Assembly: GCA_051294905.1 (NCBI GenBank)
Contig: CM119371.1
Coordinates: 12,960,001 to 13,024,000, forward strand
Direction: 5' to 3'
Source of the DNA: Botryllus schlosseri
Taxonomy: Eukaryota
Length of the DNA: 64,000 nt
This document shows, one piece after another, positions 8,307 to 63,879 of the stretch. Position 1 is the stretch's first letter, and each line of letters begins with the position of its first letter. The position numbers and the translations under genes are program-made. Under the pieces are notes generated by a model. That model had not been told where the DNA came from. It searched no databases and worked only from the letters and a program-made list of their open reading frames with translations.

Positions 8307-9743
8307 ACGTAAACTACAGACGATTGATAGCGGTTATAAACCGTCATACTCAACAAGAAACTGCTGGCGGCATCAGGGAAGACTTCAAGAATGAAATTCT
8401 TTGCGAACCAGACTTCGAAGTGTTCCCGCAGATGAAAAAAGTCAGAGTTGCCGACTACTATAAAGGCCGATTTCGCAAAGAAAATCCTTCTGCTGCCGAA
8501 ACCTCAATTTCGCGGAGTGAGTTGACAGAGGAAATCGGGTTTCACCGCCAGCAAGACAACGACGGTAAATGGATCAAAATCGAAGAGATAATGGAATCGA
8601 TATCAAAAACAGATGAACTACCTCCACGCGATGAAGTTGGTTACACTGCTATCGTAGCGTCGGCGGGATCGGGCAAAACTACCCTAATGCGTAGAATTGC
8701 TCGAAAAGCGCTCGGTATTTCCACTGTGAAAGAAAAAGGTGAACGCGCCCCTTCCCATCCGAGACGAAAAATGATACATTACATGGAATTAAAGAACATG
8801 CAAGAAGAGAACGGTATAAAAGCATCCAAATTTCTATTTGGCGGTCTCTTTGAAACTGAGTTTGAAGAGGATGAAGCTTATAAATGGTTACTTGAGAATC
8901 AATCTGAGGCAATTATCATTTTCGACGGGCTTGATCAAATGAAGTGGGACTTTGAGGAGTCTACCTTACGAGATATCAAAACGTTTGAAAACGCGAGTAC
9001 CTCGACCATCATGTGCAACATCTTATCACGAAGAATCCTTCGCCACGCCAAAATCATCGTGTCGTCACGTGAATTCAAAGTCTCCGAGTTACCGGCTAAG
9101 GCGCGTCCGAAAGAAATAATCACACTTAATGGTCTCACACCGCAAAGCGCTTATAAATTGTTTACTTATCTGCTCTTTGAGAACGGGAAGCGTCTCTGGG
9201 AGAAGATTAAAAGCATGTCACCGCGATTATTACAACTAGTATCAGTCCCGGTTTTCCTGATTTTGATAGCAGTGGAGATGGGAATTGATCCAAATAGACC
9301 TCCTCCGTCTACCGTGACAGAACTGTACAGCAGGATCATGTTAATCTTACGGAGTGTGGAATATATCCGAAACCGTAAGCAAATCCTCTCGATTATCAAC
9401 AAATTGAAGGAAATGGCGTTTGAAGGCGTGAAAGAGGGACGAGTCGTGTTCTACAAAGCAGATTTGGATCGGTTTGGAGTTTCCGCGGATGAAGTACAGG
9501 ATTTGATGACGAAAGTGCCTGGCAACAACATCCTCAGCCGTCACTTGATGGAAGGCGACTTTACTTTCTTCTTCTGTCATCAAAGCATGCAAGAATTTCT
9601 GGCAGCTTGTTTTGTCTCGGAATTGAAGCTCGAAACGTACTCTCTGTTCGATAGCCAACAACTACATGAGAAACAATGGTCCGTGGTTCGAAGATTCGTC
9701 ACTGGTATCGTTTACATGAATTATACTAGCGACGTTCACAGCG
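8307..9743 (+). CDS. NACHT-domain exon of an NLR-like (NACHT-LRR) protein
   Basis: Acceptor ttgtttctgcag| (phase 1), uninterrupted ~479-codon frame, donor G|gtaagt (phase 1). Motifs: Walker A ASAGSGKTT, Walker B IIIFDGLDQ, sensor-1 IIVSSR, VPVF, winged-helix FFFCHQSMQEFLAA. Confidence 0.95.
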
Positions 9744-10374
9744 GTAAGTAATCGTGGTTTTCCGCAACTATTCTGCCCCAGCACTGATTAATTATGATGG
9801 ATCGCTTATATTTTGTAATGACTTTGATGGTATCGTCGCGATTGAAGGGGTGAAATAGTCGAAAGATCATTCACGGCATGAAAATAAGTCTTTATTTTTA
9901 GTCGGCAAAATAAAACTTTATATTTAAAATCTGCATATATTGGCAGATAATTGAACGTGAGCTTAACCAGGGCACGCTGTTGATCACTATGTGACATTGT
10001 TTGTTTGCTTTTTTTGAGTATTCATGACGTCTGTCGACTACAGTGGTCATTTACAGCAGGCCGTGTTTTTGCAATTTTGATTCCGTATTTTTCGACTTCT
10101 TGCACGACCGACTTCAAAGCTTTTTGAAATACAACGCTTCCGCGGATGAGATGGAGAGGAACCTATATAAAACTCCAACACTTAGGTATCAATTCTTGAG
10201 TCGAACTCAGTCGGACATATGACATTGATGCGCATGAAATGCTCCTGTTATTGTGAACTAGATATGAGAGTTCAATGACTCCATTTGAACCTTGCATCAT
10301 CGATGTCTCGTAAATCATACAATTGTGACGTAAATGGTAAGGCAAAAAAACATTACGAATACAACATGGTGATT

Positions 10375-11000
10375 CATAGTGTCCTACATGGTGTCGACAC
10401 AAGCAAATATCACGTCTCAGTGAAATTGTATCACGTCACAATTTCCATTTAGCTACAGGCAATTTGACGGTCATTTTTGACCGGCTTGCCGAGCATTAAA
10501 TTTGGTAAAACGGGTATCAATCGAAAGTTGACCCTGCACTTATTACGGAAATATAAATTTTATTCCGCTGGTGGCCCTGGAACTCCCACAATGAGCCTCG
10601 AATTTTTCATTGTTATGGAGATTGGCATTGCAACACAACAATGCTGTCTAGCGAAACGAGAGAGTAGCTCATGACGCAACAATGCTGTCTTGCGAAACGA
10701 GAGAGTAGCTCAAGAAAAAAAGAGCCAGAAAGCATCATTGCGTCCCAATGCCAACCTCCATAACAATGAAAAATTCGAGGCTGATTGTGGGGGTTCCAGG
10801 GCCGCGAGCGGAATAAAATTTATATTTTCGTCATCAGTGTAGAGTCAGCTTTCGCTTGATACCCGTTTTACCAAATTTAATGCTCGGTAAGCCGGTCAAA
10901 AATGACCGTCAAATTGCCTGTAGCCAAATGGAAATTGTGACGTGATACATTTCACTGAGCTGTGAGATTTGCTTGTGTCGACACCATATAGGACACTATG
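10375..11000. mobile_element. Long foldback (palindromic) element with ~265-bp arms
   Basis: catagtgtccta.../...taggacactatg with near-continuous reverse complementarity; the centre holds a tandem ~38-bp duplication (caacaatgctgtct.gcgaaacgagagagtagctca). Confidence 0.9.
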
Positions 11001-11016
11001 GTGTATTGCTTGACAG

Positions 11017-11330
11017 TCTCGGATCAAACACAGAAGAGACAAATTCTTGCTCGATCGATTCGTTCGCGACTGCAGGAGAAGACTGAAATAGACGACAAAT
11101 ACGGACGCCTGGATCTCTATACAGCAATCTGCGAATCGGGCGACGACAATCTTATGAAATATATTTCCGTCATCGACGCATCACATATCTCATTGAGTCG
11201 CGATGAAGCTCACGTCGTTGGATTGCTTGCAGCAAGGAATCGAAGTCTTCGTTTTTTGAATTTAGCCTACTGCAGTATGGACGAAGAGCTTATTGGCATC
11301 ATTGCAAGGTGTCTGGATAATCGAATACGT
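11017..11330 (+). CDS. NLR exon: end of helical domain 2 plus first LRR-like units
   Basis: Acceptor ttgcttgacag| joins in phase with the NACHT exon (G+TC = Val). Encodes LDLYTAICES and LRR-like SLRFLNLAYCSM; donor CGT|gtgagt (phase 0). Confidence 0.9.
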
Positions 11331-12138
11331 GTGAGTCATACTGTTTCAAATGATTCATTTCGTAGGAAAACTATATTATGTGTTATTCTGGAATTCATGT
11401 CAGTTTGAGCCCTCCCCTGTTCAGACATGGTGCGATATTCACATCTTTTCGCTGTGATGCACTATTCGTAGCAATCGCTTGAGTGTAATAATTTCACGTC
11501 GCTTAGGTCTATTGCGGGAACCATAGCAATTTTCAAAATCGTATTCGATGGGAACGATATAGTGGCAACCTGTTCAGTGAACAATAACATACCGGTACAT
11601 GATATATGAGTATTAAGGAGTATTTTCATCGATCTCAAGTACCTCCAAGCGTAACTTCTCTAAATACTGGATTTGCATAGACGTCAACTGCTGTCACAAA
11701 GAGACTCATCCAGAGTCAATCAACGATCGCGCATATGACTATTGGTATAATTTAATTGCAGCAAATTGTGCTCAATATATGACGCTGGTAGACGTCACAT
11801 TGGCTTGATGCACTCTTCAGAGTAAATGTTATGCAAATGTTCATTTTGCGGGTAACACAATATCAAAGTTTATTAGCGAATATTAAAAACAATTCAACTG
11901 ACGATCAGCCTGGATAAACTAGCTTTCGTAAACTTCGCCCTTAGTCTACATAAACTTTGATTAATAAACTTGAGTGAATGCTGATTCCAACTTCCAGCTT
12001 CGGCATTGCTGTCTGCTTATTGTATTGTTCAGTTTTTTTTTAGCTGTGAGTTTTGCTGTGAATAAACCGTCATTTACTCATTAATTGATATAAAAATATT
12101 AGACACATACGCATTGACATTACATATTGACTTAGCAG

Positions 12139-12329
12139 CAACGTTCCTTCTAATTTTTGACGAGTCTTCGCGTACGAACCAACTCACTGCGCCGTCCTTG
12201 GAAAACAGTGCGTAACGACTGAAAAAAGGTCATCACGTCGATTTTTTGTGCGCAGCTTAGATTTTCTATGCGCAGAGGCCATGTCAGCACTGTGTAATCG
12301 CGCACGTGCGGAGCTTAGAGGAAACATTG
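12139..12329. mobile_element. Short hAT-type MITE
   Basis: Imperfect TIRs caacgttccttctaa/ttagaggaaacattg; flanks cttagcag/catagcat (6/8). Confidence 0.55.
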
Positions 12330-12719
12330 CATAGCATCCCGAGTAAAGATATCCTTTACTGCCTAAAATTTAGAAAGAGAATTAATACGCTGGTCTGCCA
12401 CAATAATCTTTTTTTTCCGATTTGGTCTCTTCAAAAAATAATGTCTAGATAGGGCCTATTTTTGACTGCATGGTATTGAATTATTCGTCACTTATGACAA
12501 ACCAAATTCAGGTATATTACCAGCGAAAACATTCCAAACACCAACATACGGCTTCGTCGAAAATTAGGTGTTCGGTTGATCCATGCTGATTATGTTTTCT
12601 AGCGCGATCAAATTTGGTACAACCGATCAGTTTGATAACGTAACGGTTCCAGTTGTATCAGATGTGAGTGAGAGGGTGTGTTATAATAGACTCTTTGATT
12701 CGAGCATTCGATGAGCTAC

Positions 12720-15700
12720 CGTGCGGACGTGTCTGATTACGCTCACGGGACCAACAATCAAAGGCGTGTTCTCAACCAAGAACTGTTAGAGTATGTCTCG
12801 CTGGGGAAAGATCGTATTGAACGAGGAAGATATTGCCATTTCTGCTAGAAGAGCTAACAGGAGAGATCAACAACATGCTTCAAAAGAACCAAGATCGGCT
12901 GTTGGACGAGATTTTCACCATCAAGAGCAATACCTCCGAGATATCTGCTAAAATGGACAAACTCAATACAAGACTAGAACCTAACAGATGTCGAAGCTAA
13001 CCGAGAAAGTATCGAGACTGCATTCAGTCGCATTGACGAGCTTGACCGCATATCTTGCCTCGATTTATTAGAACTTCAAGGCATTGTGAAGAAAGAAAAC
13101 GAGGATACAAAGGAAGTTGTTACAGATGTTTGTAAAACGATGAGGGTAAGATTGAATGAAAAGGACCTATTATTATGCTATCGTAAACCTCTCCGAGATG
13201 CTACGAAAACATCCCCTATCATGATGAAATTACTTGATCGAACTATCAGAGATGAGATCTACTTGGCATGATTGAAACTTCGCGACGTTTCGAGCACAAA
13301 GTTGGAAAATGCCAACTCAATCTTTATCACGGAAAATCTCACCGAGAGGACCCCGAAGTTATTGTATGACGCCCGTCAACTGAAAAAGAAGCAAAAATCT
13401 GATTTCCTATGGACAAGACATGGGAAGATCTGGGCAAAAAAGAACGTTGACTCATCACCATGTCTAATCGAAAAACATAGTGATCTACAGAAGACCCTGT
13501 GAACAACTATTCTCCCTCACGCAACCTATTCATAGTAAGCGCATTATTTTTCATTGTTTGATTCATTATTATGCCTTTGCCCCACTATTCTTTTGATCTT
13601 GCTAGTAGGCGACATGACAAACACAATACCAATGCCAGAACTGTTTGCAACCTCAATCAGACCTCCATGAAGGTGCTGATTTGTCCCCAGAAAGCTTCAA
13701 CTTTATCAATGTCAAGAAATGTGAATATGTTTGCCTGGATAAATTGACCGATATCTTATCGCGATCCTCCAACTCAGATTGATTCACAATATGTCATTTT
13801 AATATGAGATCACTTCAGAAGAACTATGATGTTATTTCTGAAATTATAACGTCGCTGAATAGTATGCATACTCACATCGCCATTTCTGAGACCAAACTCA
13901 AATCTGATCTGACTTCTAATATAGCATTGGATGGATATACGTTCCTTCATTCACCGACCCGTTCCAATGCGAGCGGGGTACGTCTCTATATCAAATCTAA
14001 TCTGCCATTCACTGTGCTAAAGGCCTATAATCCTGCGTATCGAGACTGAGTAGCTATGGGTCAATTTGGAAGATTTCCAGGATAACAGGCCCCTAATCAT
14101 TGCGATCATTTATAGACACCCTAGATCTAGCGTGAATGATGTCACCGAATTCACAGAAGAAATGAATCGAGCCTTGTGTAAAATCAATGGAAAGCCGAAC
14201 GATTGTTTCATCATTGGAGATCATAATGTTAACCTCAAAGCAAAAAATAGCTCGACTGTTAACCGGTATATCAATATGTTACGGAGCTGTAACTTCGTAC
14301 CATTCATCTCCCTACCGACCGGGTATTCGGACAGTTCTAGTACTCTTCTTGACCATATTTACACGAATTTATCCACCCGGGAAATTCAACTGTGTGTGTG
14401 CTCAATGGTCATATGTAATATCTGACCACTTGCCTGTTTTTGCGATAGTTGATTTGAGAACTAGCAAATGTAAACCCTTGCGTTGTTATAAACGTGTCCT
14501 CTATTGTATTGATCCTTCCCGTTTAGCAACCGAATCTGAATATGTGTTCTCTAGATTATTTGACAAACCCTTAACCTTGAGTAATTTTGAAGCATACTTC
14601 GATGCTTTCAAGAATGCCATTGACGAGTTATTGAACACTCATGCCCCTATGATCACACTCAGCTGGCGCGACCGTAAATTACTCCGCAAACCTTGGATAT
14701 CGAAAGGTATTGTGATCTATATCAGACGGCGTAACACAATGCATTATCCTCTTTTTGTTAAGGGCAATGCTGAGCAGAGGACATTTTATAAAACTTACTC
14801 GAATAAGTTAACTCGTATCAAAAAGGCTAAGCAAAACTATTTCTTGAAAGCTTTCGTAGAAAATAGAAATAATCCAAAAACAGTATCATTCGTAGGGATT
14901 CCAAAACCTCGAGTAAGGCATTGAGTATCACTGATTCAACTGGCGAGATGATAATTACCCCGGGTGAGATGCTGAATCGTTTAATGACTATTGTTGCACG
15001 TTAGGTAGGCTACATCGCTAGCGCGCGAATTGCCATCGCCGTCTGAGAGCCAGTCATTTGCCTCGACTTCCTCGAAATTCATTTAATTGAGATCAACATC
15101 GGAAAGCGAAATTGTACAGACTATAGTTGACCTTCGCAGCAATAAGGATAACGGTGTAGACGGCATCCCTGCCGCTTTTTTGATATTAATTAGTCCGTAC
15201 ATCTCTTCACTAGTTTGCAAGATATTCAACTTCTGTATAAATAATGAAATCTTTCCGAACCCCCTAAAAATAGAGAGAGTAGTCCCAATCTTCAATCAAG
15301 GAGATGACACCAACAGAAGCGACTACAGACCAATTCCTTTACTACCAACCACGGCTAAAGTGTTCGAAAAGCTAGTCCATATGAGGTTGATGGATTTCAT
15401 TGATAAAGAAGAAATTCTTTCGAAACATCAATTTGGTCTTCGGGAAGGATTCAATACGTCCCAGGCAATTCTCGATGTGACGGAGAAATACTATAAGGTG
15501 ATTGAGCGTAACAAAGTAGCATATAGTATATTCCTTGATCTCAAGAAAGCGTTTGATACCGTTGATCATGACATCCCTCTTGCCAAGTTATCGACCTGCG
15601 GTATCAGGGGTGTTGCCAATGACCTATTCATATCTTACTTGAGCAATAGATCTTAATGTGTCGATATCTCTGGGACATGTCTGATGTGTTCGAAATGCGT

Positions 15701-16110
15701 TGACAGTAAGACCTCATGTCTGAGGCATGTCTGGAGTAAGTTCGAACTCCGTTTTCGATCGCACATCATGTCTGGGACATATCTGGCGCATGTCGGGGGG
15801 CGTGTGCGAACTGTGTTGACACTCGGACATCGTGTCTGGGCATGTCTGTGGTGTGTTATGGTGTCTGGGGTGTGTTATCGTGTCTGTGACGAATCTTGAG
15901 TGAGTACAGACTGCTATTTTTGTTCATTCTTCTTGCAGAAAATATTAACAATTTACAAGCACAATTACAAGCACCGACCTATGACAGCTTGTTATATGCT
16001 TGTATTTGGCATTTACAAGCTCCATCGAGCTTGTATCAAGCATTTATTAGCTCGTTACAAGCTATTTTACAAGAATTATTTTTACAGTGTACCCGAAAGT
16101 ACGAATCACC
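12720..16110 (+). mobile_element. Decayed CR1/L2-group LINE (ORF1 plus APE-RT ORF2), internally deleted
   Basis: ORF1 fragments (IFITENLT, FLWTRHGKIW); AP-endonuclease motifs (NMRSL, IAISET, IYRHP, GDHN, TLLDHIY, SDHLP); RT motifs (YRPIPLL, QFGLR, FLDLKKAFDTVDH). Many stops and frameshifts; C-terminal-like fragment at 15900-16110. Boundaries approximate. Confidence 0.85.
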
Positions 16111-16571
16111 GCCGCGTCCATAAGAATAAGGATATATTGGTGTTACACTCTCTTTAAACGTTGGGATTAACTCGAATCGGTCATAAATGATAATTTGTGA
16201 TACACACGTTAACTAAGGACCAATCACGTGACTATTTACCATACATGATACATATTCAACACCATGCCGCCGCAGCCTATAGGCCTACCCACAACGTTAG
16301 TCAAGTCATCAACAGTATATACCTGAAGGGTCACCATGTCGCCGCCCCTATACCTCAAAAGGTGGCCATGCCACCACGAGTTTTTACGGCACCATGTCGC
16401 CGCAGCCTATACCCGAAAAGGTAACCATGTCGCCGCACCCATAAGACACAATGGCACCATGCTACCGGAGCCAATAGTTATAACGGCCAGCATGCCACCA
16501 CGAGTTTCACGGCACCATGTCGCCGCGCCCATAAGCCACAATGGCGAATCGCGAGCGATCTACTATACTAC
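16109..16571. repeat. Terminal fragment of a DNA element with tandem subterminal repeats
   Basis: Repeated caccatgtcgccgc..ccata/cctata units ending in tactatactact; homologous to 26440-26811. Confidence 0.6.
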
Positions 16572-18548
16572 TCAAGAGATCCCAGTCTGGTTCAAACAAG
16601 GGATCACCTCTCTTATTCCAAAAAATGAAAACACCAGGGACCCCAAGAACTACAGGCCGATAACATGCCTTACAACCATGTACAAATCACTGACCAAAAT
16701 CCTGGCAAAACGAAGCTACAAACACCTAGAAAACTTTATTCCGCCTGAGCAGAAAGGGTGCAAGGACCACCTGCTACTTGACAAAACCATTCTTGAAAAC
16801 AGCAAGAGGAGACACACTAGCCTCAGCATGACATGGGTAGACTACAAAAAAACTGTCGATTCAGTCCCTCACACATGGATACTGAAAACTATGCGTATGT
16901 ACAAAATGAATGCGATCATTATCAGATTTATTGAATATTCAATGAAAAATTGACATACAAAACTGTTGATCAAACATGACCAAGGTGAACAGAAACATGT
17001 ACAATTCAGATACGGAATGGTATCTTTCAAGGCGACTCATTTTAACCACTTCTATTCTGCCTCAGCTTAGCTCTACTCAGTGAGTTGCTGAGAAAAAATG
17101 AAACAGGATACGTGATGAAAAAAGCAGCAAACTCTCAAGCTCACAAGATTCATCACCTTTTGTTCATGGATGATCTAAAATTCTATGCGAAATCCGATGC
17201 GGACCTAAATAACCAAATGAAAATTGTTCATGAGTTTTCGGAAGATATAAAAATAAAATTTGTCTTGGATAAATGCTCAAAACTTACCATACGACGTGAA
17301 AGAGCCACCAGCACTGGCGACATGAACTTAAAAATAGGCGAAACCATAACAGAATTTGAATACCGAAGACCACTATAAATATCTAGGGATCTGTGAAAGC
17401 GGCAACATTAAACATGCTGCAATGAAATCCAGTCTAAAAAATACATTAGCAGACTCCGGTCAATTCTCAAAACTGAACTCAAGTCCAAAAACAAATTCAA
17501 TGATATAAACAGTCTTGCAGTGCCTGTCTTGAGAGATAGCTGTGGTGCTCTGAACCGGCGAAAAGATGAAATTAAAAGATTGGACACAAAGACGAGAAAA
17601 CTGATAACAACGCACCACATGCACACCCAAAATCTGATACACAAAGACTGTACATCCCCAGAAAAAAAGGTGGTCGAGGACTACGAGAAATTGTACAAAC
17701 TTTCAAAACAGAAATCATCGGCTTGTCACAGTACATCAACAACAGCGATAACATTTGTAACTGCAAACTCATTGCATGGAAAGATAAACAGCGCAAAACA
17801 AAATCTATGAGCTATCGTCACAACAAGTAGCCTACGTCAGGGAAGTCAACATTGAAACAGCTAACCTGTACACTGATGAAAACACTGTTGCCAAACCCAC
17901 AACAATAGCAAAAGCAGCACGAGTTCGATACAAAAATGCAACGCTCAAACTGAGAGAAACGATATGGGAGTCGATGCCTCTTCGTGGACAGCACAAGAAG
18001 TTAAGTTCACAGTTCCATGAAGACGAGCTTTCATGGACCTGGCTATCCAGTTCTGGCCTGAAACCGGTAAGCGAAGGATTCCTTTTCGCAGCACAAGTCC
18101 ATTCGCTTCCTACAAAATACTATCGCAAAAGAATTCTGATGCAAAACACAGACGGCAAATGCAGAATGTGCCAAAATCAAATTGAAATTGTAGCACATCT
18201 CATGTCCGGCAGTGGTGTACTTGCAGCTACCAAATACACATGGAGACACAATAGAATTGGTCGCTACATTCATCTTGAATTATGCAAACATTTTAACATC
18301 AACACTAGTAGTAAGGATTGAATCGTTTGGTGCGCACCAATCAAATTTCGCCACGTCGCCCTAATTGTCACGCCTACTGGACGCCCAAAGCCACGTCACC
18401 CTAATTACCACGCCTATACGACACCCATTGCCACACCCACATATTCTAATGTTTTGTGAATTTCAATACCGATTTTCCATGTGTATTTAGCAATATGTAT
18501 TGAATAACTTGTTTCCGAGAAATAAATAACATTCATTATACGTTAGAT

Positions 18549-20470
18549 CAGTGCTTTTCAACCTTTTTGAGCTTCATTCGCACTTTTTTTGTAAAATAAA
18601 TTTCATTCGCACAAAATTAACCGAATACTATTATACAAAAAGAAGATGAAAATACAACATTTATTTTCTCAGATATGCAACAAATTGGTTCCAATCTATC
18701 TTAAGCTATCAAGTATCTCATTAAATAGGCTACTATTTTCGCTCGTTTTGATTTCAACTATTTCATTAAAACGCTTTTACTATAGTGTTTGGATGACCAG
18801 GTCTTGAAGTCTGTTCTGCACTCCTATCCAACATACAGCGCATTTTTCAAGAGTGAAAAATGCTTGCTGGACAAAATCGATTTTGAGAGCTGACAAAGAA
18901 GTCTAGGAGACTCCTGTATGTCGGAAGTGTGAATAACTCGACTGTTTGTGATGAGGCTAAAGCCTTATGTCTTGGAATATAAGGTCAAAATGATCAAGGC
19001 GAGTAGGCACATTTGAGCTCATCACCTTATGACACGTTGCTCCAACTTGTTTATCGCTTTCCCATTTTATGTCACGCGAGTATGTGGTAATAGCAAATAA
19101 ACTCACGATACTGGGTGTTCTGCACTTTAGCTCAATCTAACTTGAGATTTCATAACTGTTTGAAAACGTTAAAGCAGTTATTTAGACAACCACCAAAATC
19201 TGAGTTTTTTATCGTGGCATCTCGCGACCCGAGCCTCACCCATTAAAATAAATTCATTTTTAATATTACAGTAGTATGCTATGATGTGACGGACATGCAT
19301 GATATACAGAATGCGCGCACAACTATTCTATCCAACACAGCCCTACAAAATATGTCCGATTGACGTGATTTCAAATTAGGGTGAATTAAATCCCTGTGCG
19401 TGTCACAGTTGTACTACTGTTTACCTACTCAGATTGCAAGAACGGGACTATTCCGTGCTGACAATGGAGCATATGCATATCGAATGAATTGGCCATCCAG
19501 TATCGGTCATCTTTGGCAAGGTTTTGTCGACGCTTATGTTTTTGCACCGCATTTTATCAGCCGTTTGTAGACCAAAACTTTCCGTCTTCATGTGACCCGA
19601 CGCAGAAGGGGTTCACCTCGAAACGAATGAGTCTCATATACGTGAACTCGCTCGTTGCAGATCCCTAGTAGCTACAGTAGTTCATCCCAACGGTTCTCAC
19701 GATAAAGCTTATTCGCTCAAGTACCCAACACCGTGACCTTAGATTTGTGAAATCTATCGCAGGATTTTTGCAATAAATTTAACAAATATCACATAGCCTA
19801 CTTATTAACACACAGCTCTGGCACCGTGTTGACCCAAAATTATATCTTTTGCAGTCCGTCCATACTTTATTAATCCTTGAAGGGGTAAGATTTCCATTAC
19901 AGTAACCTGCAAATGGGAGTCTGTGATGATAGTATTTACTACTATCCTCGTCCCTCGCACTAATCGAACATGTATTGCATAATTATGATGATTGTTTAGC
20001 GGAAAGTAAGCAGAAAGTCAATTTAACGTCATTTTCCCAGCCTGTCGCATGCTCAGAAGGGCTGATATACTGTATGTCTCCCACTACACCAGCTTCCAAA
20101 CCAAGCTTTTGGTTAAGTAATAATTATAGAGCGAAAATGTTAATCCACTATACGGCTTGTGAGAGCTACGACGAGTGGTGCGTTGTAACTTAACAAGTTT
20201 TTACAATTGCGTCGCAACAACAAAAGTTACACTGCCGCTAATTTCCTATAAGGTATATTTGAATTATTCCAGGCCAGAAAAATTGACAATTATTATTCAC
20301 GATTTTCCTTCGTACTCATGTGGGATTTTCATTCGCACCGTTCGCACCACCTTTGTCGTTCGCACTCATCCGGGTTTTTCATTCGCACCGTTCGCACCAT
20401 GCTCGTCATTCGCACTGCAATTTTTTCCATTCGCACAGGTGCGAACCGTCACACAGGTTGAAAACTACGC
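18549..20470. mobile_element. Degenerate hAT-type non-autonomous element with CATTCGCAC subterminal repeats
   Basis: Left end cagtgcttttcaacc; degenerate right end caggttgaaaactac; cattcgcac arrays at both ends. Confidence 0.55.
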
Positions 20471-21234
20471 AAATTTGACTCAATTTCAAGCCGTAGAAGC
20501 GGAGTTATGTCAGTTTTTCTTTGATAATTCTAGGATTATCGTTTTTATTTCTCGGAAGCAAGTCATTATCAAAACATAGTGATCAAAATTATTGCAGAGC
20601 AATACCGATTTTGCGTAAATTCTGAATAAAATCCAGAGTGTAAGAGTCTTTAGTGCATCGGAATAGTGTACTTTACAAAATTTATATGATTTTTCTTGCT
20701 GCGTTCCGGGATAAACTGTAACTCCGTGGTCAGATGCGAGATAACAGCGACTCATAGCTCATTTAGATACCTAATCTACTTTAAAATTAGTACCCGAGTA
20801 TTTGCTGCAATTATACTGCCAGATAGTTATAGCCAGAGGGTTTCGATGGTGACGTACTTGTATAATGCACATTTCGGAGAGATTAAGTAAAGCAATGATC
20901 TCAGATACATCCATTAAATTAAGGTAGAAGTAGCTATTTACGAATAAAAGTTAGTATTCTAGGTCTATATTTCTGTTTAATACTGAAAATGTCATGAAGT
21001 TGAAGCAATCTGAAATTATAAACGCTGTAGTATTAGGTACATATACGCGAAAAGCTACTTTAGTATTCTGATGGAGTGCAAATACTTGTTTACTTATCAA
21101 CTTTGAAGGCTTGCGCAGTTTGTGGTGTGATACGCAAAATTAGTGTGTTCAAATCAGACCTGTCGTAAACATAGGGATGTCGCATTAGTCCTAAATACAC
21201 ATGATAGAATATCAAGGAAAAGTATCATCTAACG

Positions 21235-21880: not shown

Positions 21881-21929
21881 CCATCAGGGCCGTAATAGCA
21901 CTTCATCCCCCCCAAACGTTGGTCTTGGG

Positions 21930-28041: not shown

Positions 28042-28206
28042 AGTTAAACATTTAATATGTGGACCTATCAATTGGCAGCAGAATTTGGTATATTTTGAAA
28101 ACAGTGTGTTCTCATTAACTCGAACTTTTACAAAAATCGCAATTGTCACAGCCAAAGATAGTGCCAAATTCTGCCGATTTTCTTTTGCAGTCAATTGACT
28201 ATTAGG

Positions 28207-33554: not shown

Positions 33555-33555
33555 G

Positions 33556-49400: not shown

Positions 49401-49463
49401 GACGTCCGAATCAGCGAATAATGAATGAATGAATATCTCTACGTGGTATTACATACGCATATC

Positions 49464-55590: not shown

Positions 55591-56486
55591 AAACGTTATA
55601 CCTAGGGCAATGGTCGGGAACCTTTATTGTCTGAAGAGCCATATTGGCCTTATTTTTTTCATTCCACCTCCCAAAGAGCCATACATGTCAATCAGCTGTT
55701 GCGTTACAATTGAAAATTCCTGACGTCATGCTAGTACTATAATTCGAATTCACCAAACATGGGATTCGTTGTGTGTGTCACATTTCTTCTGTAAAAACCC
55801 GAACTAATCATGCTGACTGCCTTACTTGAGCATGCGAAACTTGAGTTACGAGAACGTAGGTTCGCCGTGATGATCCTTTGAAATGCGATAACCCATGATC
55901 ACATGCGTAGGCGGAACCTAACATGGTCACTACATTATAACTAGCGTGACTTCCAGCAGTATACTAATAGTGAAAAAAGCAGTAGCCTATCCGTCCACTA
56001 AAATCGCATCGTGCATCGAATACTGACATATCACCTATTTAATGCTGGCGTATGAATAAAATCATCTCGATATGAGGGTAGGATTTAGATCAGGGGGGCC
56101 AAACTCAACTTGGGTAACTGGCCGGATTCAAACCTTGAAATCGCTCGTGGACCGGACGAGTCAAATTCTTCCAAAATGTTAATTTAAATTCCAATGCCCT
56201 TTTTGTCACTGTACTACTTAATCATGAAGCCAGTGTACATATTGATATGTTACATTATTTGACGGATCATGTGGGTTCTGGTCTAGTAACACTTTTATTC
56301 GCAAATAATCAATTTGGCAAAAATACAATTTGCGAGTTGAATAGATAGATAAACCGTTAAAGCAGTGGCCCTAACGACGGTATAAGGAGGTATGCTTCTA
56401 CGCTCTCTTATTGTTTTCTGTTATCCTGTTTCAGGTTTCTGTGGGTGTCAGGACCTGTTTGACCCAAAACTGACAGAGCGCTGCGA

Positions 56487-56833
56487 AAACAGATATTAAC
56501 ACCATACTTCGTCACTGTTTTATTTTCCGTGTGACCTGAATATAACAGTTTTGCATTGCGTTTTCGCTTCTATGAAGAACTACTTTGCGATACATTTTAA
56601 CACAAACCTGTGAACTCAGTGTGCACATTTTGTCACTGGAGTGGGTATAATTTGGCCTCAAACAGATATTAACACCATGCTTCGTCACTGTTTTAGTGTC
56701 CGTGTGACCTGAATATAACAGTTTTGCATTGCGTTTTCGCTTCTATGAAGTACTACTTTGCGAAACATTTTTACACAAACCTGTGAACTCAGTGTGTACA
56801 TTGTGCCACTGGAGTGGTTATAATATGGCCTCA
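56487..56833 (+). repeat. Tandem duplication of ~173 bp
   Basis: aaacagatattaacaccat...ggagtgg.tataat.tggcctca present twice head to tail. Confidence 0.9.
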
Positions 56834-57169
56834 ACGTTCGTTTTCTTCTTCACCACTGATTTAGATCATCACAGTGCTGTGTGGGTATTCTCCGAACGCA
56901 TCGTTGCATCACAATAACAATGCTCTTGTTGAAAAATATGCGAAGGGATGATTGTCTGCGCGGAACATGTTCGGAATTTCACTGTTCACGTTGTGTCTGG
57001 AGGGAAATTTTAATATATGCCTCAAAGTCCATAATTTTGAAGGCTTGAAAGTCAAAATCTTTTCCGAATAAACATAACCAATAATAGCAGATTTATGATA
57101 CTGAATTTTTTTCTTGGCGCCACGCGCAATTTGGTACACTTTGTATCAATTTAAATATAGGGCCACCTC

Positions 57170-58950
57170 CAGAGTTGGATCAATTACATTAATTCAATTC
57201 AGTTTCAATTACAATTACTCTATTGCATGTTTTAATTTCAATATGATTACAATTACTCTATGCTAAAAATATCAAATTACAACTACGATCAAGGTTGTAA
57301 CCTAGTCACAAATGCTCCGAGTAACAAGTTAATCTCATTTTCATAGTTTTGACTCGAGTCAAGTCGAGTCATTTTCAACTCACGACCAAGTCCAAGTCAG
57401 CGATCAGAGGGTGGAGTCCGAGTCATGGTATTATGACTCTCGAGTCCAAGTCATTGTGTTGACGGCTCAGCTTCCAGTTAAAGTCTTGGTAACCCACTTA
57501 TTATTTATTATAACCCTTTTTTTTATATATCGAATGGTTGGCATGTTAATACATTTATTTTCCTCACTTGTAGCAGTTTCTAGTTGCATTTTTAAGTACC
57601 ATTACCCATACACGAAATCCCAATAGTGTGGTCACTTTTCTATTCTTTGAAATTTCAATGAAATGTCGATCTTGCCCGTCTGAGTCTCAAGTCATATGAC
57701 TTGGTTCGAGTCATGCATAATGAATCGAGTCCTAGTCGAATCAATACACTGTTTGACTTGATTTGAGTCGAGTCATTTCGGAATTTTGCGAAAATGACTC
57801 GAGTCAAGTCGAGTCATCAGAAAATCCTGACTCGAGTCTTTAGAACCCTGACTACAATTACAATTACTGCTATACATGTAAGTACAATTATAATTACAAT
57901 TACTGGCAAAATTCTGATTGATTCGCTAGAGAGGTGCTCTTTGGCATCTGTAGCGACTTATTTAGCAACAATCTCAAGCTATTCATGTTTTATTCATGAT
58001 TCGTACTACGCAGAATACCCTTTAATTAAAAAAAAAAACTTGAACGTATTCAAACTATTCCTAATCATGAGCTCTGAAAAATACAAATTTTTTTTTTATT
58101 TATTTAAACAACTACTAACAATCAGTAATTCGAGCGACTGGCAACGACTAATGGCGAATAGGATACAAAATAGTCGATGAAATGTACTCAAACGAATAGT
58201 CAGAGCTGTGTGAGGTGAATAAAATGTAATTGGTAAGGCAATAAGGTTGATACCGATAACTTGTGTAAAATTAAAATAAATGCAAAAGTAAAGAAGCTCC
58301 TGATAACTACCAATTACAAAAATTTGGTTCGCAGTTACATTTTCACTTGCTCATAACTGTTTGACTGCATTTGATGAACATTAGGATGCGGAAAGGTTCT
58401 GCCCCCAGTAAATTAAGCTGAGATGGAGGTAAGACTGGGATAACATCTCTACAAATGTGTCATCTAGCGTGATGAAGTATTGGTTGAAAACTTGAATTTC
58501 TTTTTGCAATTGCTGCAGCAAGCCCCAGTACTGGAAAGAGATTTTAAAAAAAATGCTGACCGTGCTGTAGGAAATGGTTCAGCACAGGTTACAGAAGAGT
58601 TTATTTGCTTTTCGTCCATTTATGAAATGGTAAGATCTTGTTCGATAGCCTATATTGTAATTCACCAAGTTTTCTGTTAGAGCTGAAGTTGGCCTATAGG
58701 AAACAGTTTAGTATGGCTGAATTAGTTAACGAGGTACGCATAGAACACCCATGTTAATGGGCTACTTATTTTATGTTGTAATTGTCAGGTTTCAATAACA
58801 ATACAATTGAAATTGTATTTAGTAACATTTTTATCAAATTACAATTACAATTACACAGAATAGAAAAGCTTCAATGGCAATTAAAATAACATGAAAAAAT
58901 AAAAGTAATTACATGCAGCTCAATTACAAATTACAGTTGATCCTACTGTG
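57170..58950. mobile_element. hAT-type MITE (CAATTA-rich) inserted in an older TAGGGTTGCC-family remnant
   Basis: Ends cagagttggatcaa/ttgatcctactgtg; TSD gccacctc/gccgcctc. Confidence 0.8.
57290..57850. mobile_element. GACTCGAGTC-family MITE nested in 57170-58950
   Basis: Ends caaggttgtaa/ttagaaccctg; TSD actacgat/actacaat. Confidence 0.85.
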
Positions 58951-59249
58951 GCCGCCTCGCTCGCAAAAATGAAATTGAAAGTGGATAAAATTAGCCATCA
59001 TTCACTGAAATCAAATCGTAATCTCAATTATAGAGTACGGTGCATTCCTAGAATTGATTGAAGCCGTTTGAATGGATTAGTAAAAGACCGTGGCTCTAAA
59101 CCCAGGGTCGTTTGCCGTTATTATGGGGATCGCAATGATGTTGAACATACTCAGCTTCCAAAATATGCCCTGAATAAGTCTGTGCAAAGCTCTGTTAGTT
59201 TGACATGATATTGGCAGACATTGTATTCATATTTCATTCATCATTCCAG

Positions 59250-59354
59250 GTGAAGAAAGTGGAATTGCGTGACAATAACTTCTCAGCAACAGCACTACGT
59301 TCATTTCTCCGACATCGTGGGATTGAATCGCTATCTGGAAAATTGGATTGGGAA
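59250..59354 (+). CDS. Paralogous LRR exon A2 (alternatively a terminal exon reading to TGA at 59370-59372)
   Basis: tttcattcatcattccag|VKKVELRDNNFSATALRSFLRHRGIESLSGKLDWE|gtgaga; same length and phase as A1, 25/35 aa identical. Confidence 0.7.
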
Positions 59355-59498
59355 GTGAGATCGATTCTATGATTTAGTTGTGTACTAACAAGCCACTATA
59401 ATTTTATGTGGGTATGCGGAGACTTGTGACGTGACAATGGTACGTGATTGGTGACGCCATAGTTGTGATAGAAAGCAATATACATACATTATCTGCAT

Positions 59499-60348
59499 CA
59501 GGGCTGTTCAAAAAACCTTCAGATTTCTTCGGCTATGTTATAAAATTGTTAGGTTGGCGAAAACGCTGCATGCCAACTTTGGGTCAATTGCAACCAGTAG
59601 AGGCGATTTTCTTGCAGTAGAATATTTTCGATTTATCATTAAAATTCAAATTTCAAATTTTTTCTCTCGACAACGTAAAATTGTTGGGCTGTCAGTAGAG
59701 ACGATGTGCACCAAATGTGGCTCAATTCCAACAACTAGAAGCGAAGTTATTGCGGTAGAAAAAATTTAGACTCGAATAAAATAATTTTACAGTAGCTAAC
59801 TCTTCAATTATTTATTCAAATAACTAATTTGTGGTACGGAACTTGAATATAGCTTTCAATACAAAATCCATTGTAGTAAAGTATTTATCAAAGTCGAAGA
59901 TATTTTGGTACCTCTTTCAAGAGTTAACGGCACACTGAAGGGAGTTAAACAGATTTGGTTTTGCTTCTAAATCCATTTAAATCCCTTTAGTGTGCCGTAA
60001 AGTATTTGAGTTTAAATATTGTACTACAATGGATGTTGTATTGAAAACTAGAATTATTTCCTATAAAATAACGGAATTGGAATTTTTACTACGGCAATAA
60101 CCTCGTGGCGGTTGGAATTGAGCCAAACTTAGTATGCATCATCACTACTGATTGCCTAACAATTTTATGGGGCTGAAAGAAAAATTTTGATTTTTTTTTT
60201 AATTATAAATTCAAAACCTTTTTGCAGCAAGAATCTCGCTTCTACTGGTTGGACTTGAAGCCAAATTTGGTTTACAGCGTTGTTTCAACCAACCTAACAA
60301 TTTTATCACATAGCCAGTGAATTCTGAAGAATTTTTTTAACAGTCCTA
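59499..60348. mobile_element. ~850-bp foldback hAT-type MITE
   Basis: cagggctgtt.../...aacagtccta with inverted arms and a central hairpin (acggcacact.aaggga...tccctttagtgtgccgt); degenerate TSD atctgcat/ctctgctt. Confidence 0.8.
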
Positions 60349-60807
60349 CTCTGCTTTCATCCCGAAGCCGTAGAGTATTTACCCACTGATATGATGTTTT
60401 AATATCACCACGGTGTCATTAATATCGGGAATTTGGTGAGATAGTGGATTATGTAGCGTAGTGGCAGCAATAAAGCGCTGAGCTAATTTCACGACCTCCT
60501 CAACAGAAATCCGCTTGCTACTACATTGACAATGAATCAAATGATCGAATTGCGATGATCGAATTGCTCATAAATATTTTGTCATAATATGTCACATACG
60601 TAAGAAAACGGCGCATGCCCCAACAAAATGCATTGTGTAAATAAAAAGTAACATTGTCAGCATCGTCAAAATTCAGGAGTGTGCATGTCGACATGAATTA
60701 GTGCGCAACAGAATAATACTTCTCCTAATCAACAAAGTGCGCATCTGGTTTTCAAGCCAACACAATGATTTCGACATTGCATAGCGAAATTGTTCACTGA
60801 TTATAAC

Positions 60808-61326
60808 TAGGGCTGGGAAAAATCGAGTATCTGAGTGATTCGATTCCAAATCATATATGAAGCTTTGAGTCGAGTCGACTATTCGATTATCACTTGTTAT
60901 GACGTCATAACGGAATGTAATATGTAAAAGTTCAAATACGTACCTTTTATGTCACCTTTAATAATATAATCCTTGTTGTTATGTATAACAATGAAGATAC
61001 TTCCGTATTGTTTCGAACATACCAATTTCATTCCAGTTTTTGTCAATTTTGGGCGATGATCATAACTTTGAAAATATGTTATTCCAGTAACGTTCGTAGC
61101 TTTGTATAATATGTTTGATATGCTGCTATGCGACAAATCATGATTTCAAGGTTTCAAAAGTGAATAATACTGTCAAAAATACAATTTTTGTCAACAAAGT
61201 AACTTTCAGTGTCGACGAACGCACAATTTCGGTACATGAGAAAATCGACTTTTACTACTCGGCCTGAATCATCAAAATTGATATTCGGTTCAGATTTGAG
61301 CATTCGAATCATTGTGCCCAGCCCTG
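60808..61326. mobile_element. TAGGGCTGGGCA-family MITE at the same site as the fragment starting at 31956
   Basis: TIRs tagggctggg/cccagccctg; shared left flank gcatagcgaaattgttcactgat in both duplicate copies. Confidence 0.85.
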
Positions 61327-61524
61327 GTTATACCAACGTTTTTGATTGCGGTGTTTTATTTCCCTTGTAATATAGGAGTCACTATGATGTCCATGGAGTA
61401 ATTCTGATTTACATGCTCACAATAGGAAACTGTCCATTTTCGCGATACGATCAAAAAGACGAAATTAGCTCATGAATTCGTGTCAATGCAGGAATATGGT
61501 TCCGGGTGCTTACGATTTGATTAA

Positions 61525-61780
61525 AGGTCAACTATATTGCCCAAAATATTTTCGTCTCAATACTTATACTTTTTCCACGGATTTCGCCATGATACTTCTT
61601 ACCTCATATAAACGAGTATTGTTGGAGATATCGAGCCACTAAACTAGCAAAATGCCACCACCGGCAAAAACGCCGGTAAAATCAGTGACCCGTGTCATAG
61701 AAGTATAGCACATGATGATCTGTGATGCTGCGGTCGTCACTGTATGTAAGATATGACGTCGCGATGGATGGTGGATGATC
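61525..61780. mobile_element. Terminus of an older Kolobok-related element
   Basis: TTAA followed by AGGTCAACTATAT; the next ~250 bp resemble the reverse complement of 40280-40529 (ccaccacc.gcaaaa.cgc.ggtaaaatcagtga.ccgt). Confidence 0.7.
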
Positions 61781-61929
61781 GATACAATGCACAATCTCAA
61801 GTTTTAAATCTGGATAATATTCAGGTTGTCAAGTTGACTGTAGGTGGATGGGATGTTATATTGAAGAACGAAGAAGATCTCATAAAGATAAGTGGTAACT
61901 GGATTGAAGGTCACATGAAGGTTGGATAG
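61768..61929 (+). other. Short ORF B2 (53 aa) starting 243 bp inside the Kolobok-like end
   Basis: MVDDRYNAQSQVLNLDNIQVVKLTVGGWDVILKNEEDLIKISGNWIEGHMKVG*; in-frame homolog B1. Confidence 0.35.
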
Positions 61930-62423
61930 CAAGATGATTCAAGTTTGATATTGAGTCCATGCTAATGATTGGAATGAAGTTTCGCTCATTACACTGACTT
62001 TACTGCACGGAGCTGTCAGCTACACTAAGCACGTACAACGATGACCTTGCGGTGTAGGATAGCCAGGATGTAGATGGTGACGTAATGATAAGCGTCATGA
62101 AGACGAGTTGCTTTTGTTGAGAATAGTAAGCTAAAAACTTGTGCTGATTTTATTAGTAAAGAATTTGTACATGATGAATTTATAAAAAAAATTGTCGGCA
62201 CTGTACTTTAATTATCAAGTCCATTCGAAATGTTAGGTTACATCTTTCAAAAATATAAGGATTGTGTCTCTTTCACATCGCATTTTCCAAAAGACAAGCA
62301 TCATATCCATCGCTTCACCAGCATTGGCCTTCAGTATTAACATTATTCTCTCATGCATGACCTTGCCTCTGAGAGTTTCTTATTGGTGCAGATTGTGACG
62401 TAACTTCCATTTTTATTTTGCAG

Positions 62424-62579
62424 GATTCCAATCTATCGTTCAAACGGGTTCATGCTGTAGCAGTCGTTGCATTTCTTGGAATACTTTTTGATGCTGAATT
62501 TATCAAATTTGAAGCACAAATACAACTGTTGGCCGAGCAGGATGATTTGCAGAAGTTATCTGAGTGTAAATTAAACAAG
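62424..62579 (+). CDS. Putative exon C2 (phase 0-0, 52 aa)
   Basis: tttttattttgcag|DSNLSFKRVHAVAVVAFLGILFDAEFIKFEAQIQLLAEQDDLQKLSECKLNK|gtatta; 6-nt frame-preserving length difference from C1. Confidence 0.55.
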
Positions 62580-62663
62580 GTATTAGATACATTTCCTATT
62601 ATATTATTGTAAAATATTTCCTGATATTGTTCAATTTGCATGATACTTTTAGACAAATTTCAG

Positions 62664-62822
62664 CCGTTATCGAATTTGAACTTGGAGTTGAGACAAAAAC
62701 TTCCATTCTCAATTTCTACTCTACTTGCATCTCTAGTATTGCGAGTCGAGTCACGATGGTACGTAGATGTCGTGAAAGTAGTCAGCCTTGCTAACCGTGA
62801 AGAAGTAGAAGAAATGTTTTAA
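62664..62822 (+). CDS. Putative terminal exon D2
   Basis: aaatttcag|PLSNLNLELRQKLPFSISTLLASLVLRVESRWYVDVVKVVSLANREEVEEMF-TAA; shares VLRVESR, SLAN and the stop position with D1. Confidence 0.4.
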   Translation, partial: PLSNLNLELRQKLPFSISTLLASLVLRVESRWYVDVVKVVSLANREEVEEMF

Positions 62823-63879
62823 TTTTATATGCAATTGTATGTAAATAATAGATGTGTCCACGATGGGTTGAAACTACTTCAAGTGGAGGTAGAAAGTGAC
62901 AAGTTTGAAAAGTACCTTGATAAGTACTTGAGTTTCGAAAAGTAGTTTTAGTCGATCGTTCGTAAGTGTTTAGTGATTTATCGCTAGCGCTTACTTTGTA
63001 AATTACGAGATGAGTCTCTGCGACTAACTAAAAATGATTATTATTGCAAATTTGTATAATCTTGGAAATTAGATTCAACAGTTACCATGATGTCACTTGT
63101 GATTTCTTAAGACGGTTTCACACATCACAGTGATTCAAACGCAACACAAAACTACTTTCTATTTCTCAAAATCCAATCTGTGAAAAGTAAGTAATTTTGT
63201 GTGAAAGTAGTCTAAAATCATGTCATATTCTTATGTATAAAAATTGTTAGACATGATATATTTCTGTCCTAAGGAAATAGAATGCACTAGGCACGATTTT
63301 GACATAAATCTCCTGACTGAGCATCATCCGTTGAACGCGGTATCTAAACCACCTTGACGTCTGCGACATATATCCTTCATAACATTGGCTGACAACTAAA
63401 TAAAGTTTGATCTCTGCATGACTGCTGGAGCGTGAAGGTCCTGTGAAAATTTCGATAAATTGCTGATCCATTACCGCGGCGTTCTGAAGAAAATGGCTGC
63501 GGCCAAATTTTTATTTTCGTTTTTCCCTTCAATTTGAGACCATATCATTTTTAGAGTGCTGTGCCCCTTTCAGGCACAATTTTGCATCAATTTCATAAGT
63601 GAAATCATTATTTTAACCACATATTTTTAAGAAGTAGAAGCCGATCATCTCGTAATATGCGCTCAGGCATTGGCGTAGTCTGAGGTGAAAAGCAACAATG
63701 CTTGCTCCAAGTCTAGGTTTCGAAAGCAGGTGGATGATATTTAAAATAGCGTATGCTTCTGTCCGTGCCAGTTTTATGCAGGTTCCAATATGTTTTACTC
63801 TTCGGGTAAATTTCAACCTTGGCGTAAACATAAGAGACATCGTTACATAGGCTATCCAGCGTTCCTTACAACATTTATC

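What the first reader, a model, noticed from the sequence alone, without database searches (positions are those of the whole stretch)
8307..63135. One NACHT core followed by two paralogous, splice-compatible LRR/3' cassettes: a possible alternative-C-terminus NLR
Seen: the exon ending at 11330 (phase 0) can join either A1 (31120) or A2 (59250). Both have intact ttccag acceptors, the same 105-nt length, an LxxLxLxxN motif, the same gtgaga donor and the same read-through stop six codons later. I found no second NACHT exon between them. Shared MITE insertion sites show that the two cassettes arose by segmental duplication. Established: LRRs set NLR ligand sensing and autoinhibition, and invertebrate NLR families diversify by duplication. 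Inference: because each cassette ends in a stop, they would be used mutually exclusively, giving receptor isoforms with one nucleotide-binding core and different sensor ends.
Basis: partly seen in the sequence, partly recalled or inferred. Interest (0 to 1): 0.8.

Follow-up and report, generated by a model that had tools for sequence, protein, structure and literature searches.

The report
NLR gene plus orphan LRR tail
One complete innate-immune NLR receptor gene is followed by a head-less copy of the tail of a different family member; the tail is intact and could in principle be spliced on, but nothing yet shows that it is used.

Summary
The sequence features are real. There is one NACHT exon (8307-9743), a second exon ending in phase 0 at 11330, and two homologous four-exon 3' cassettes. 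These are c1 (A1 31120, B1 36047, C1 40962, D1 41465-41550) and c2 (A2 59250, B2 61825, C2 62424, D2 62737-62822). There is no second NACHT exon in the window or within 10 kb either side.

The origin claim fails. c1 and c2 are not local duplicates of each other (AU test p=4e-56). c1 is an "alpha"-type cassette, matching the window's NACHT lineage. c2 is a "beta"-type cassette, 91% identical to one that follows a NACHT exon only 63% identical (DNA) to the window's. c2 lies in a duplicated segment that starts at 55934 and runs on past the window's end, at least 9.8 kb against beta loci. That start is 133 nt past the exon-2 donor of the parent-type gene.

The locus therefore reads best as a complete NLR gene plus a NACHT-less fragment of a paralogue, in a family of at least 98 NACHT copies.

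c2 is undecayed and phase-compatible, so alternative or additive use remains possible, but it is untested. Four RNA-seq runs gave no reads on the last 91 nt of exon 2. Only 2 of 22 related genes show a second cassette by coordinates.

The parts
8307..9743 (+). NACHT exon. 8307 is the second base of a codon, so at least one unidentified 5' exon lies upstream. The donor GT is at 9744. The reading frame is open for 478 codons, with Walker A and B motifs.
   Evidence: PF05729 E=8.9e-16; NOD2_WH E=4.4e-07
10363..10997 (.). Window-specific inverted-repeat element (arms 10375-10652 / 10724-11000) in intron 1. It ends about 17 nt before the exon 2 acceptor. It is absent at this site in paralogues p9 and p1.
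11017..11330 (+). Exon 2 (first LRR-like part). It enters in phase 1 and ends in phase 0 with donor gtgagt.
11331..31119 (+). Putative intron of 19,789 nt, swollen by mobile elements. It holds reverse-transcriptase ORFs at 15087-15656 and 16327-16953 and a high-copy 730-bp element at 27296-28041.
   Evidence: Reads laid here were almost all partial repeat matches.
31120..31224 (+). A1, first exon of cassette c1 (105 nt, phase 0-0).
36047..36151 (+). B1 (105 nt, phase 0-0).
40962..41111 (+). C1 (150 nt, phase 0-0, alpha type).
41465..41550 (+). D1, terminal exon with a stop. With the first AG and phase 0 the stop comes after 14 codons. A longer conserved frame ends at TAA 41548-41550.
55934..64000 (+). 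Duplicated segment that carries c2. It is collinear with a beta-type locus from 55934 and with other loci to at least genome position window+65737 (beta loci) and window+70419 (p1). Its 5' end corresponds to 133 nt downstream of the exon-2 donor of the parent-type gene.
59250..59354 (+). A2, first exon of cassette c2 (105 nt, phase 0-0).
61825..61920 (+). B2 (96 nt, phase 0-0). It has a 6-nt in-frame deletion seen in none of the 7 other B exons aligned.
62424..62579 (+). C2 (156 nt, phase 0-0, beta type).
62737..62822 (+). D2, terminal exon with a stop. With the first AG and phase 0 the stop comes after 9 codons. The longer conserved frame ends at TAA 62820-62822.

Best explanation
The window holds one complete NLR gene of a hugely expanded, tunicate-like family. 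It consists of unidentified 5' exon(s), the NACHT exon, exon 2, and the cognate alpha-type LRR cassette A1-B1-C1-D1. The exon 2 to A1 intron has been stretched to 19.8 kb by mobile elements.

About 14 kb beyond the gene's terminal exon begins a NACHT-less fragment of a different (beta-type) family member. It starts inside that gene's exon 2 to A intron and runs through its four 3' exons into its downstream flank.

Such fragments are expected by-products of birth-and-death evolution in NLR clusters, because the long repeat-rich intron is a large target for duplication or deletion breakpoints.

Shown: the exon anatomy, the absence of a second NACHT, the different ancestry of c1 and c2, and the position of the breakpoint.

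Inferred: that exon 2 splices to A1, and that c2 is currently an unused, still undecayed fragment.
For: 1. The family is large. There are 98 listed NACHT matches (216 candidates, 89 scored), and none lies in the window other than its own. The best named proteins are Styela clava NLR-like, at 31-34% identity.

2. In Styela homologues the sequence right after the exon-2 equivalent aligns with an A-type exon, so an A exon is the expected next exon (by eye).

3. Cassette tree of 10 cassettes:
- c1 groups with the cassettes that follow alpha-type NACHT exons (support 86/91).
- c2 groups with g3827, g1860_second and L041 (support 92/97).
- c1 + c2 as sisters is rejected (p-AU 3.9e-56).

4. Identities fit this split. 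The window's NACHT exon is 81-86% identical in DNA to those alpha genes and 63% to the beta genes. c1 is at most 82% identical to any cassette, and c2 is 91% identical to g3827's.

5. Homology of c2's segment to the beta locus starts at 55934, which is 133 nt after that gene's exon-2 donor. No beta NACHT or exon-2 relic lies in the window or its 10-kb flanks.

6. A2 with its flanks has 13 full-length copies at 93-94% identity in the C1 0.16-3.8 Mb cluster (41 matches listed of 1044 candidates).

7. Orphan cassettes occur elsewhere. p9 has a second cassette with only exons A and B. g1860 has a complete second cassette with a different 5' breakpoint.

8. By coordinates, 2 of 22 other alpha-type genes have two A2-like hits downstream, 15 have one and 5 have none (truncated lists).
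Against: c2 shows no decay. All four exons are open, with canonical AG/GT sites. It has one residue change of its own in A and none in C.

The three exon indels against g3827 are all multiples of three, while 24 of 28 small intron indels are not.

My rough estimate is that a neutral c2 lineage would stay unbroken by chance with probability about 0.13. This uses 5.0 frame-breaking indels per kb per pair, and an assumed (recalled) 4% of substitutions giving stops. The estimate is weak, but it does not favour decay.

All three second cassettes examined lie on the beta side of the tree, and a single origin for them is not rejected (p-AU 0.234). An inherited alpha-plus-beta arrangement is therefore not excluded.

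No RNA read supports the 11330>31120 junction either.
Confidence: 0.62

Rival explanations
1. Transcripts from the single NACHT core run past D1, and exon 2 splices either to A1 or to A2. This would give two receptor isoforms with different LRR ends.
For: - The two cassettes are on the same strand.
- Both acceptors are intact and both junctions are phase 0.
- c2 is a complete cassette with its own stop and is undecayed.
- A second cassette of the same tree side follows two other alpha genes, and a single origin of these is not rejected.
Against: - c2 derives from a truncated gene of another subfamily, not from c1.
- Using it needs transcription through the terminal exon D1 and about 18 kb of repeat-rich DNA.
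- Only 2 of 22 other alpha genes show two A-type hits.
- p9's second cassette lacks C and D.
- The 5' breakpoints of c2 and g1860_second differ by about 2 kb.
Confidence: 0.1
2. Additive use. Because A, B and C are all phase 0-0, C1 could splice to A2 and skip D1. This would give a longer receptor with two LRR modules in tandem, as in Styela homologues with 2-5 repeated units.
For: - Phase symmetry of A, B and C in both cassettes.
- Styela proteins differ in the number of repeated C-terminal units (by eye).
Against: - There is no RNA evidence.
- D1 keeps an intact acceptor region and stop.
- The same rarity argument applies (2 of 22).
Confidence: 0.04
3. c2 is expressed on its own as a NACHT-less transcript. 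It could start from a promoter in an upstream mobile element, or, if the organism is a tunicate, form by spliced-leader trans-splicing onto the A2 acceptor (recalled knowledge of tunicates, not tested).
For: - The exons and acceptor are intact.
- Mobile elements lie upstream of 55934.
Against: - There is no upstream ATG-bearing exon within the segment's homology.
- By my reading of the translations, A2 has no Met, so a product would lack an obvious start.
Confidence: 0.1
4. Assembly artefact: c2 is a misplaced haplotype or a collapsed or misjoined paralogue.
For: The family has many near-identical members.
Against: - c1 and c2 are only 80% identical and of different types, so they are not haplotypes.
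- The window has no N.
- The best other copy of A2 with its flanks is 94% identical, not 100%.
- The collinear homology runs on into the downstream flank.
Confidence: 0.03

Closest known systems
Styela clava NLR-like proteins (P0001-P0011; source names such as 'NLRC5-like' and 'NACHT, LRR and PYD domains-containing protein 2-like')
   Same: They share the same NACHT core, at 31-34% identity over 96-97% of the exon. After it they have the same order of parts: an exon-2-like stretch and then a stretch like exon A (by eye). Two of them carry precomputed LRR_6 (PF13516).
   Different: The window's family has a much shorter C-terminal part, about 165 residues in four exons. No N-terminal region was identified here. 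The species differ.
Exon-modular LRR domains and LRR exon skipping in human NLRP3 (PMC6642158; seen only as search listing and start of abstract)
   Same: The LRR part is built from separate exons, which makes alternative combinations possible without frameshift. Here A, B and C are all phase 0-0.
   Different: There it is skipping of an internal exon of one array, shown by RNA. Here it would be a choice between two complete terminal cassettes of different ancestry, and no RNA supports it.
Exon shuffling and alternative splicing of LRR exons in brown-algal ROCO genes (PMC11378527; seen only as search listing and start of abstract)
   Same: This is a candidate immune receptor family in which LRR exon cassettes are reshuffled among members. 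Here the A-exon block is 91-94% alike across genes whose NACHT exons are 63% alike.
   Different: The nucleotide-binding core is different (ROC-COR, not NACHT), and the kingdom is different.
Truncated paralogues in NLR clusters under birth-and-death evolution (general knowledge, recalled)
   Same: c2 is a head-less 3' fragment with an intronic breakpoint, lying next to a complete family member.
   Different: c2 shows no disabling mutation yet.

Membership tests
NLR (NACHT-LRR, STAND NTPase) | NACHT nucleotide-binding domain with P-loop | tested here: met
   PF05729 scores 58.6 bits against a cut-off of 26.7. The frame is open for 478 codons.
NLR (NACHT-LRR, STAND NTPase) | Winged-helix / helical module after NACHT | tested here: met
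   PF17779 NOD2_WH scores 30.3 bits against a cut-off of 23.1.
NLR (NACHT-LRR, STAND NTPase) | C-terminal leucine-rich repeats | tested here: inconclusive
   Exon 2 and the A exons, searched singly, match no Pfam LRR model. The LxLxxN pattern is seen by eye. Among the Styela homologues, 2 of 11 carry PF13516. The joined cassette protein was not searched.
NLR (NACHT-LRR, STAND NTPase) | N-terminal effector domain (CARD, PYD, Death, TIR etc.) | not tested
   The 5' exon(s) were not identified. 8307 is mid-codon, and no clear coding block lies in 7560-7800.
Gene with alternative, mutually exclusive 3' exon cassettes | One donor compatible with both acceptors in phase | tested here: met
   11330 is phase 0, and both A exons start in phase 0 after ttccag.
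Gene with alternative, mutually exclusive 3' exon cassettes | Transcripts with both junctions | tested here: inconclusive
   There was zero depth on 11240-11906 in 4 of 4 runs, and no joint at 11330 or 31120 was listed (20 joints in all, 15 shown). A2 was outside the stretch laid.
Gene with alternative, mutually exclusive 3' exon cassettes | Arrangement kept among related genes | tested here: not met
   Of 22 other alpha-type genes, 2 have two A2-like hits downstream (a lower bound from truncated lists). One of the two second cassettes is truncated.
Truncated paralogue (partial gene duplicate) | Lacks the 5' exons of its parent type, with the breakpoint inside a parent intron | tested here: met
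   Homology starts 133 nt after the parent-type exon-2 donor. There is no beta NACHT or exon 2 in the window or its flanks.
Truncated paralogue (partial gene duplicate) | Disabling mutations or relaxed constraint relative to intact members | tested here: not met
   There are no stops or frameshifts. pN/pS is 1.17-2.43 in 10 of 10 beta pairs, whether or not c2 is in the pair, so the measure cannot discriminate.

The most novel reading that the evidence does not exclude
An alpha-type NLR gene followed by a NACHT-less beta-type LRR cassette is an inherited, maintained arrangement in part of this family (the window, p9 and g1860). Because every internal cassette exon is phase 0-0, one NACHT core could then be joined to either LRR module or to both. 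That would be combinatorial sensor diversity by cassette choice in an invertebrate chordate.
Probability: 0.1. Interest if true: 0.75.

Novelty: new member of a known kind. Interest (0 to 1): 0.3.

Why it matters
If cassette choice were real, it would be a way for an invertebrate NLR to multiply its recognition ends without duplicating the signalling core, and a single cDNA experiment could test it.

As the evidence stands, the locus is an ordinary product of NLR cluster turnover: a complete gene beside a head-less fragment.

The family itself is of some interest:
- It has at least 98 NACHT copies.
- Its LRR exons are phase-symmetric, with pN/pS above 1.
- Exon B has an in-frame indel hot spot.
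- The A-exon block is 91-94% alike between genes whose NACHT exons are only 63% alike in DNA, which points to exchange or homogenisation of 3' cassettes.

Tried and rejected
**RNA evidence**
- The look-up of sequencing runs listed no RNA holder for the NACHT exon. There were 7 small-share rows, all under 0.1.
- The single lay used window:11240-31239 and runs X10, X13, X14 and X16, reading 5,850 million letters.
- 4,939 reads were laid, and 4,844 of them lay only partly on the stretch. All the signal sits on mobile elements, for example 16576-17242.
- There was nothing on the last 91 nt of exon 2. The only listed joints near A1 (to 30693, 30761 and 30774) are strand-switch joints in repeats, 350-430 nt upstream of it.
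- This shows only that the gene was not detected in those subsamples.

**Local duplicate of the gene's 5' region**
- The pair 6949-7698 / 27296-28041 (90% identical) at first looked like a duplicated 5' element.
- It is a high-copy mobile element, with 3,079 candidates and copies of 92-100% identity on many contigs. This idea was rejected.

**Second NACHT relic at 51471-51698**
- This came from a relaxed tblastn and was not reproduced. It was rejected.

**A mobile-element insertion disabling the A1 acceptor**
- The 1.3-kb insertion that ends 17 nt before A1 has its last ~43-60 nt shared with p9's second cassette.
- By alignment start points it is probably also shared with other copies, among them the only listed cassette of an alpha gene (C1:2113631).
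- It is therefore old and not evidence of a dead acceptor.

**Other tests that could not decide**
- dN/dS and unique-change counts do not discriminate c2 from NACHT-attached cassettes.
- The reading frame across the C to D junction could not be settled without RNA.
- The 5' exon(s) were not found.
- The search of earlier findings returned nothing.
One of them (g1860) was chosen because its coordinates already suggested two cassettes.
Full report
**Observation**

- An exon ends at 11330 in phase 0.
- A1 (31120-31224) and A2 (59250-59354) are both 105 nt. Both follow ttccag, both are followed by gtgaga, and both have a read-through stop after five more codons.
- The large upstream exon (8307-9743) is a NACHT exon (PF05729 58.6 bits; NOD2_WH 30.3 bits).
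- It joins exon 2 (11017-11330) in phase 1.

No other NACHT or exon 2 is present.
- The window's own protein hits only its own exons.
- A beta-type NACHT and exon 2 from a paralogue also hit only those exons, in the window and in 10 kb on each side.
- A weak hit at 51471-51698 from a relaxed search was not reproduced.

**What the cassettes are**

The closest named proteins are Styela clava NLR-like proteins (31-34% identity over 96-97% of the exon). The genome is probably a tunicate's, though I did not establish the species.

The genome is held as G000 (495 Mb), and the window is C1:12960001-13024000. It carries at least 98 NACHT matches to this exon (216 candidates, 89 scored).

I fetched DNA downstream of two close paralogues, p9 and p1, and later four more loci. 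Aligning these cassettes shows that each cassette has four exons.
- c1: A1 31120-31224, B1 36047-36151, C1 40962-41111, D1 41465-41550.
- c2: A2 59250-59354, B2 61825-61920, C2 62424-62579, D2 62737-62822.

All exons have AG/GT sites. A, B and C are phase 0 to phase 0, and indels between copies inside exons are multiples of three. D carries the stop.

The frame across the C to D junction is ambiguous without RNA. The first AG in phase 0 gives a short tail. A longer frame, open in c1, c2 and two beta cassettes, ends at the same TAA in these; in a third beta copy a 1-nt deletion removes that stop.

No further cassette exon exists in the window or its flanks.

**Origin**

c1 and c2 are 80% identical. 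The repeats they share are also present in p9 and p1, so they are old family features and not marks of a local duplication.

A2 with its flanks has 13 full-length copies at 93-94% identity in the cluster at C1 0.16-3.8 Mb.

A maximum-likelihood tree of ten cassettes (874 columns) gives the following.
- c1 sits with the cassettes that follow alpha-type NACHT exons: p9_first, p1 and g1860_first (support 86/91).
- c2 sits with g3827, g1860_second and L041 (support 92/97).
- Holding c1 and c2 together costs 108.9 log-likelihood units (p-AU 3.9e-56).

The window's NACHT exon is 85.9, 81.0 and 80.9% identical in DNA to those of p9, p1 and g1860's gene. It is 63% identical to the NACHT exons upstream of g1063 and g3827.

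So c1 is the cognate type of cassette, and c2 comes from the other lineage, here called beta.

The homology of c2's segment to the g3827 locus begins at 55934. That is 133 nt downstream of that gene's exon-2 donor. It continues past the window's end, to at least +65737 against beta loci and +70419 against p1.

The simplest reading is a partial copy of a beta gene whose head is missing.

**Is c2 decaying?**

It is not visibly decaying. Against g3827:
- Intron divergence is 9.2% and 11.1% in two segments, and exon divergence is 6.7% and 11.3%.
- There are 28 small intron indels in 4,818 nt, and 24 of them are not multiples of three.
- The three exon indels are 3, 3 and 6 nt.

c2 has one private residue change in A and none in C.

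pN/pS is 1.17-2.43 in 10 of 10 pairs of beta cassettes, with or without c2. The family's LRR exons evolve too freely for this measure to separate a live copy from a dead one.

My rough estimate is that a neutral c2 lineage would remain unbroken with probability about 0.13. This is inference, and it uses a recalled 4% stop rate. It is not significant.

**Is the double arrangement a design?**

Three alpha genes carry a second cassette on the beta side of the tree: the window, p9 and g1860. A single origin of these is not rejected (p-AU 0.234; the group was named after seeing the tree).

Several points count against a maintained design.
- g1860 was picked because its coordinates suggested two cassettes.
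- p9's second cassette has only A and B.
- The 5' ends of c2 and g1860_second differ by about 2 kb.
- p1 has no second cassette within the 30 kb fetched.
- By coordinates only 2 of 22 other alpha-type genes show two A2-like hits before the next NACHT, while 15 show one and 5 show none (both lists are truncated, so these are lower bounds).

**RNA**

No RNA holder was listed for the NACHT exon.

The one lay allowed was placed on 11240-31239, so that a 11330>31120 joint or loose ends at 11330 would show. Four bulk RNA-seq runs were used and 5,850 million letters read.

The result was zero depth on 11240-11906 in all eight strand columns, and no listed joint at 11330 or 31120 (20 joints in all, 15 shown). 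Of 4,939 laid reads, 4,844 matched only partly, on mobile elements. Splicing is therefore untested in either direction.

**Verdict**

The locus is best read as a complete NLR gene with a repeat-swollen 19.8-kb intron, followed by a head-less, still intact 3' fragment of a paralogue of another subfamily (confidence about 0.62).

An additive C1>A2 model is equally possible, because only D carries a stop. Together I give these about 0.14.

Comparable known cases are the exon-modular LRRs of human NLRP3 and the LRR exon shuffling in brown-algal ROCO genes. I saw both only as search listings and abstract starts. I found no paper on this family in the one tunicate NLR search I ran. That is a single search and no proof of absence.

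Noticed in passing
window 10363-10997: An inverted-repeat element (arms 10375-10652 / 10724-11000, 91% complementary) sits in intron 1 and ends about 17 nt before the exon 2 acceptor. Paralogues p9 and p1 lack it at this site. It may displace the branch point and could bear on the lack of reads on exon 2.
   Followed up: partly
window 6949-7698 and 27296-28041: These are two copies (90% alike) of a 730-bp high-copy element. The genome holds 3,079 candidates, and one copy on C14 is 100% identical over 729 nt. Older relatives (66-70%) lie at the same relative place upstream of the NACHT exon in at least 9 paralogues.
   Followed up: partly
window 32480-35505: A perfect (100%) 1,075-bp inverted repeat (32480-33554 / 34431-35505) overlaps a 604-codon ORF with a reverse-transcriptase match, inside the A1-B1 intron. 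It is either a very recent head-to-head element or an assembly quirk.
   Followed up: partly
window 36921-37478: An ORF with a THAP domain (E=4e-15), probably from a DNA transposon, lies in the B1-C1 intron.
   Followed up: partly
window 16576-17242: This is the only strongly covered bin in the RNA lay (14-88x per strand column in 3 of 4 runs; near 0 in X13). The reads carry fixed differences and loose ends, so they come from expressed copies of a reverse-transcriptase element elsewhere in the genome.
   Followed up: no
cassette exons A and C of five beta cassettes; exon B of all cassettes: pN/pS is above 1 in 10 of 10 pairs. The 3' half of exon B is an in-frame indel hot spot (exon lengths 96-117 nt). 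In exon A the variable residues lie in the first 12 residues, the stretch with the LxLxxN motif. This is suggestive of diversifying selection on the sensor surface.
   Followed up: partly
G000 C1:1063961, C1:3827169 versus C1:3475867, C1:1767055 and others: The A-exon block is 91-94% alike in cassettes behind alpha-type and beta-type NACHT exons that are themselves only 63% alike, while exons C and D separate the two types. The cassettes look mosaic, which suggests gene conversion or 3' cassette exchange.
   Followed up: partly
L040/L043 (g3827) positions 9417-10316: In this beta gene the exon-2 coding sequence is split by about 590 nt. The interruption holds copies of the same inverted-repeat family as the window's intron 1. 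The parent-type gene used for comparison may itself be interrupted.
   Followed up: no
window 49710-50693: A tandem array with a unit of about 130-150 nt (74-79% alike) lies between the two cassettes. An inverted pair 49177-49396 / 55039-55257 (90%) brackets about 6 kb.
   Followed up: no
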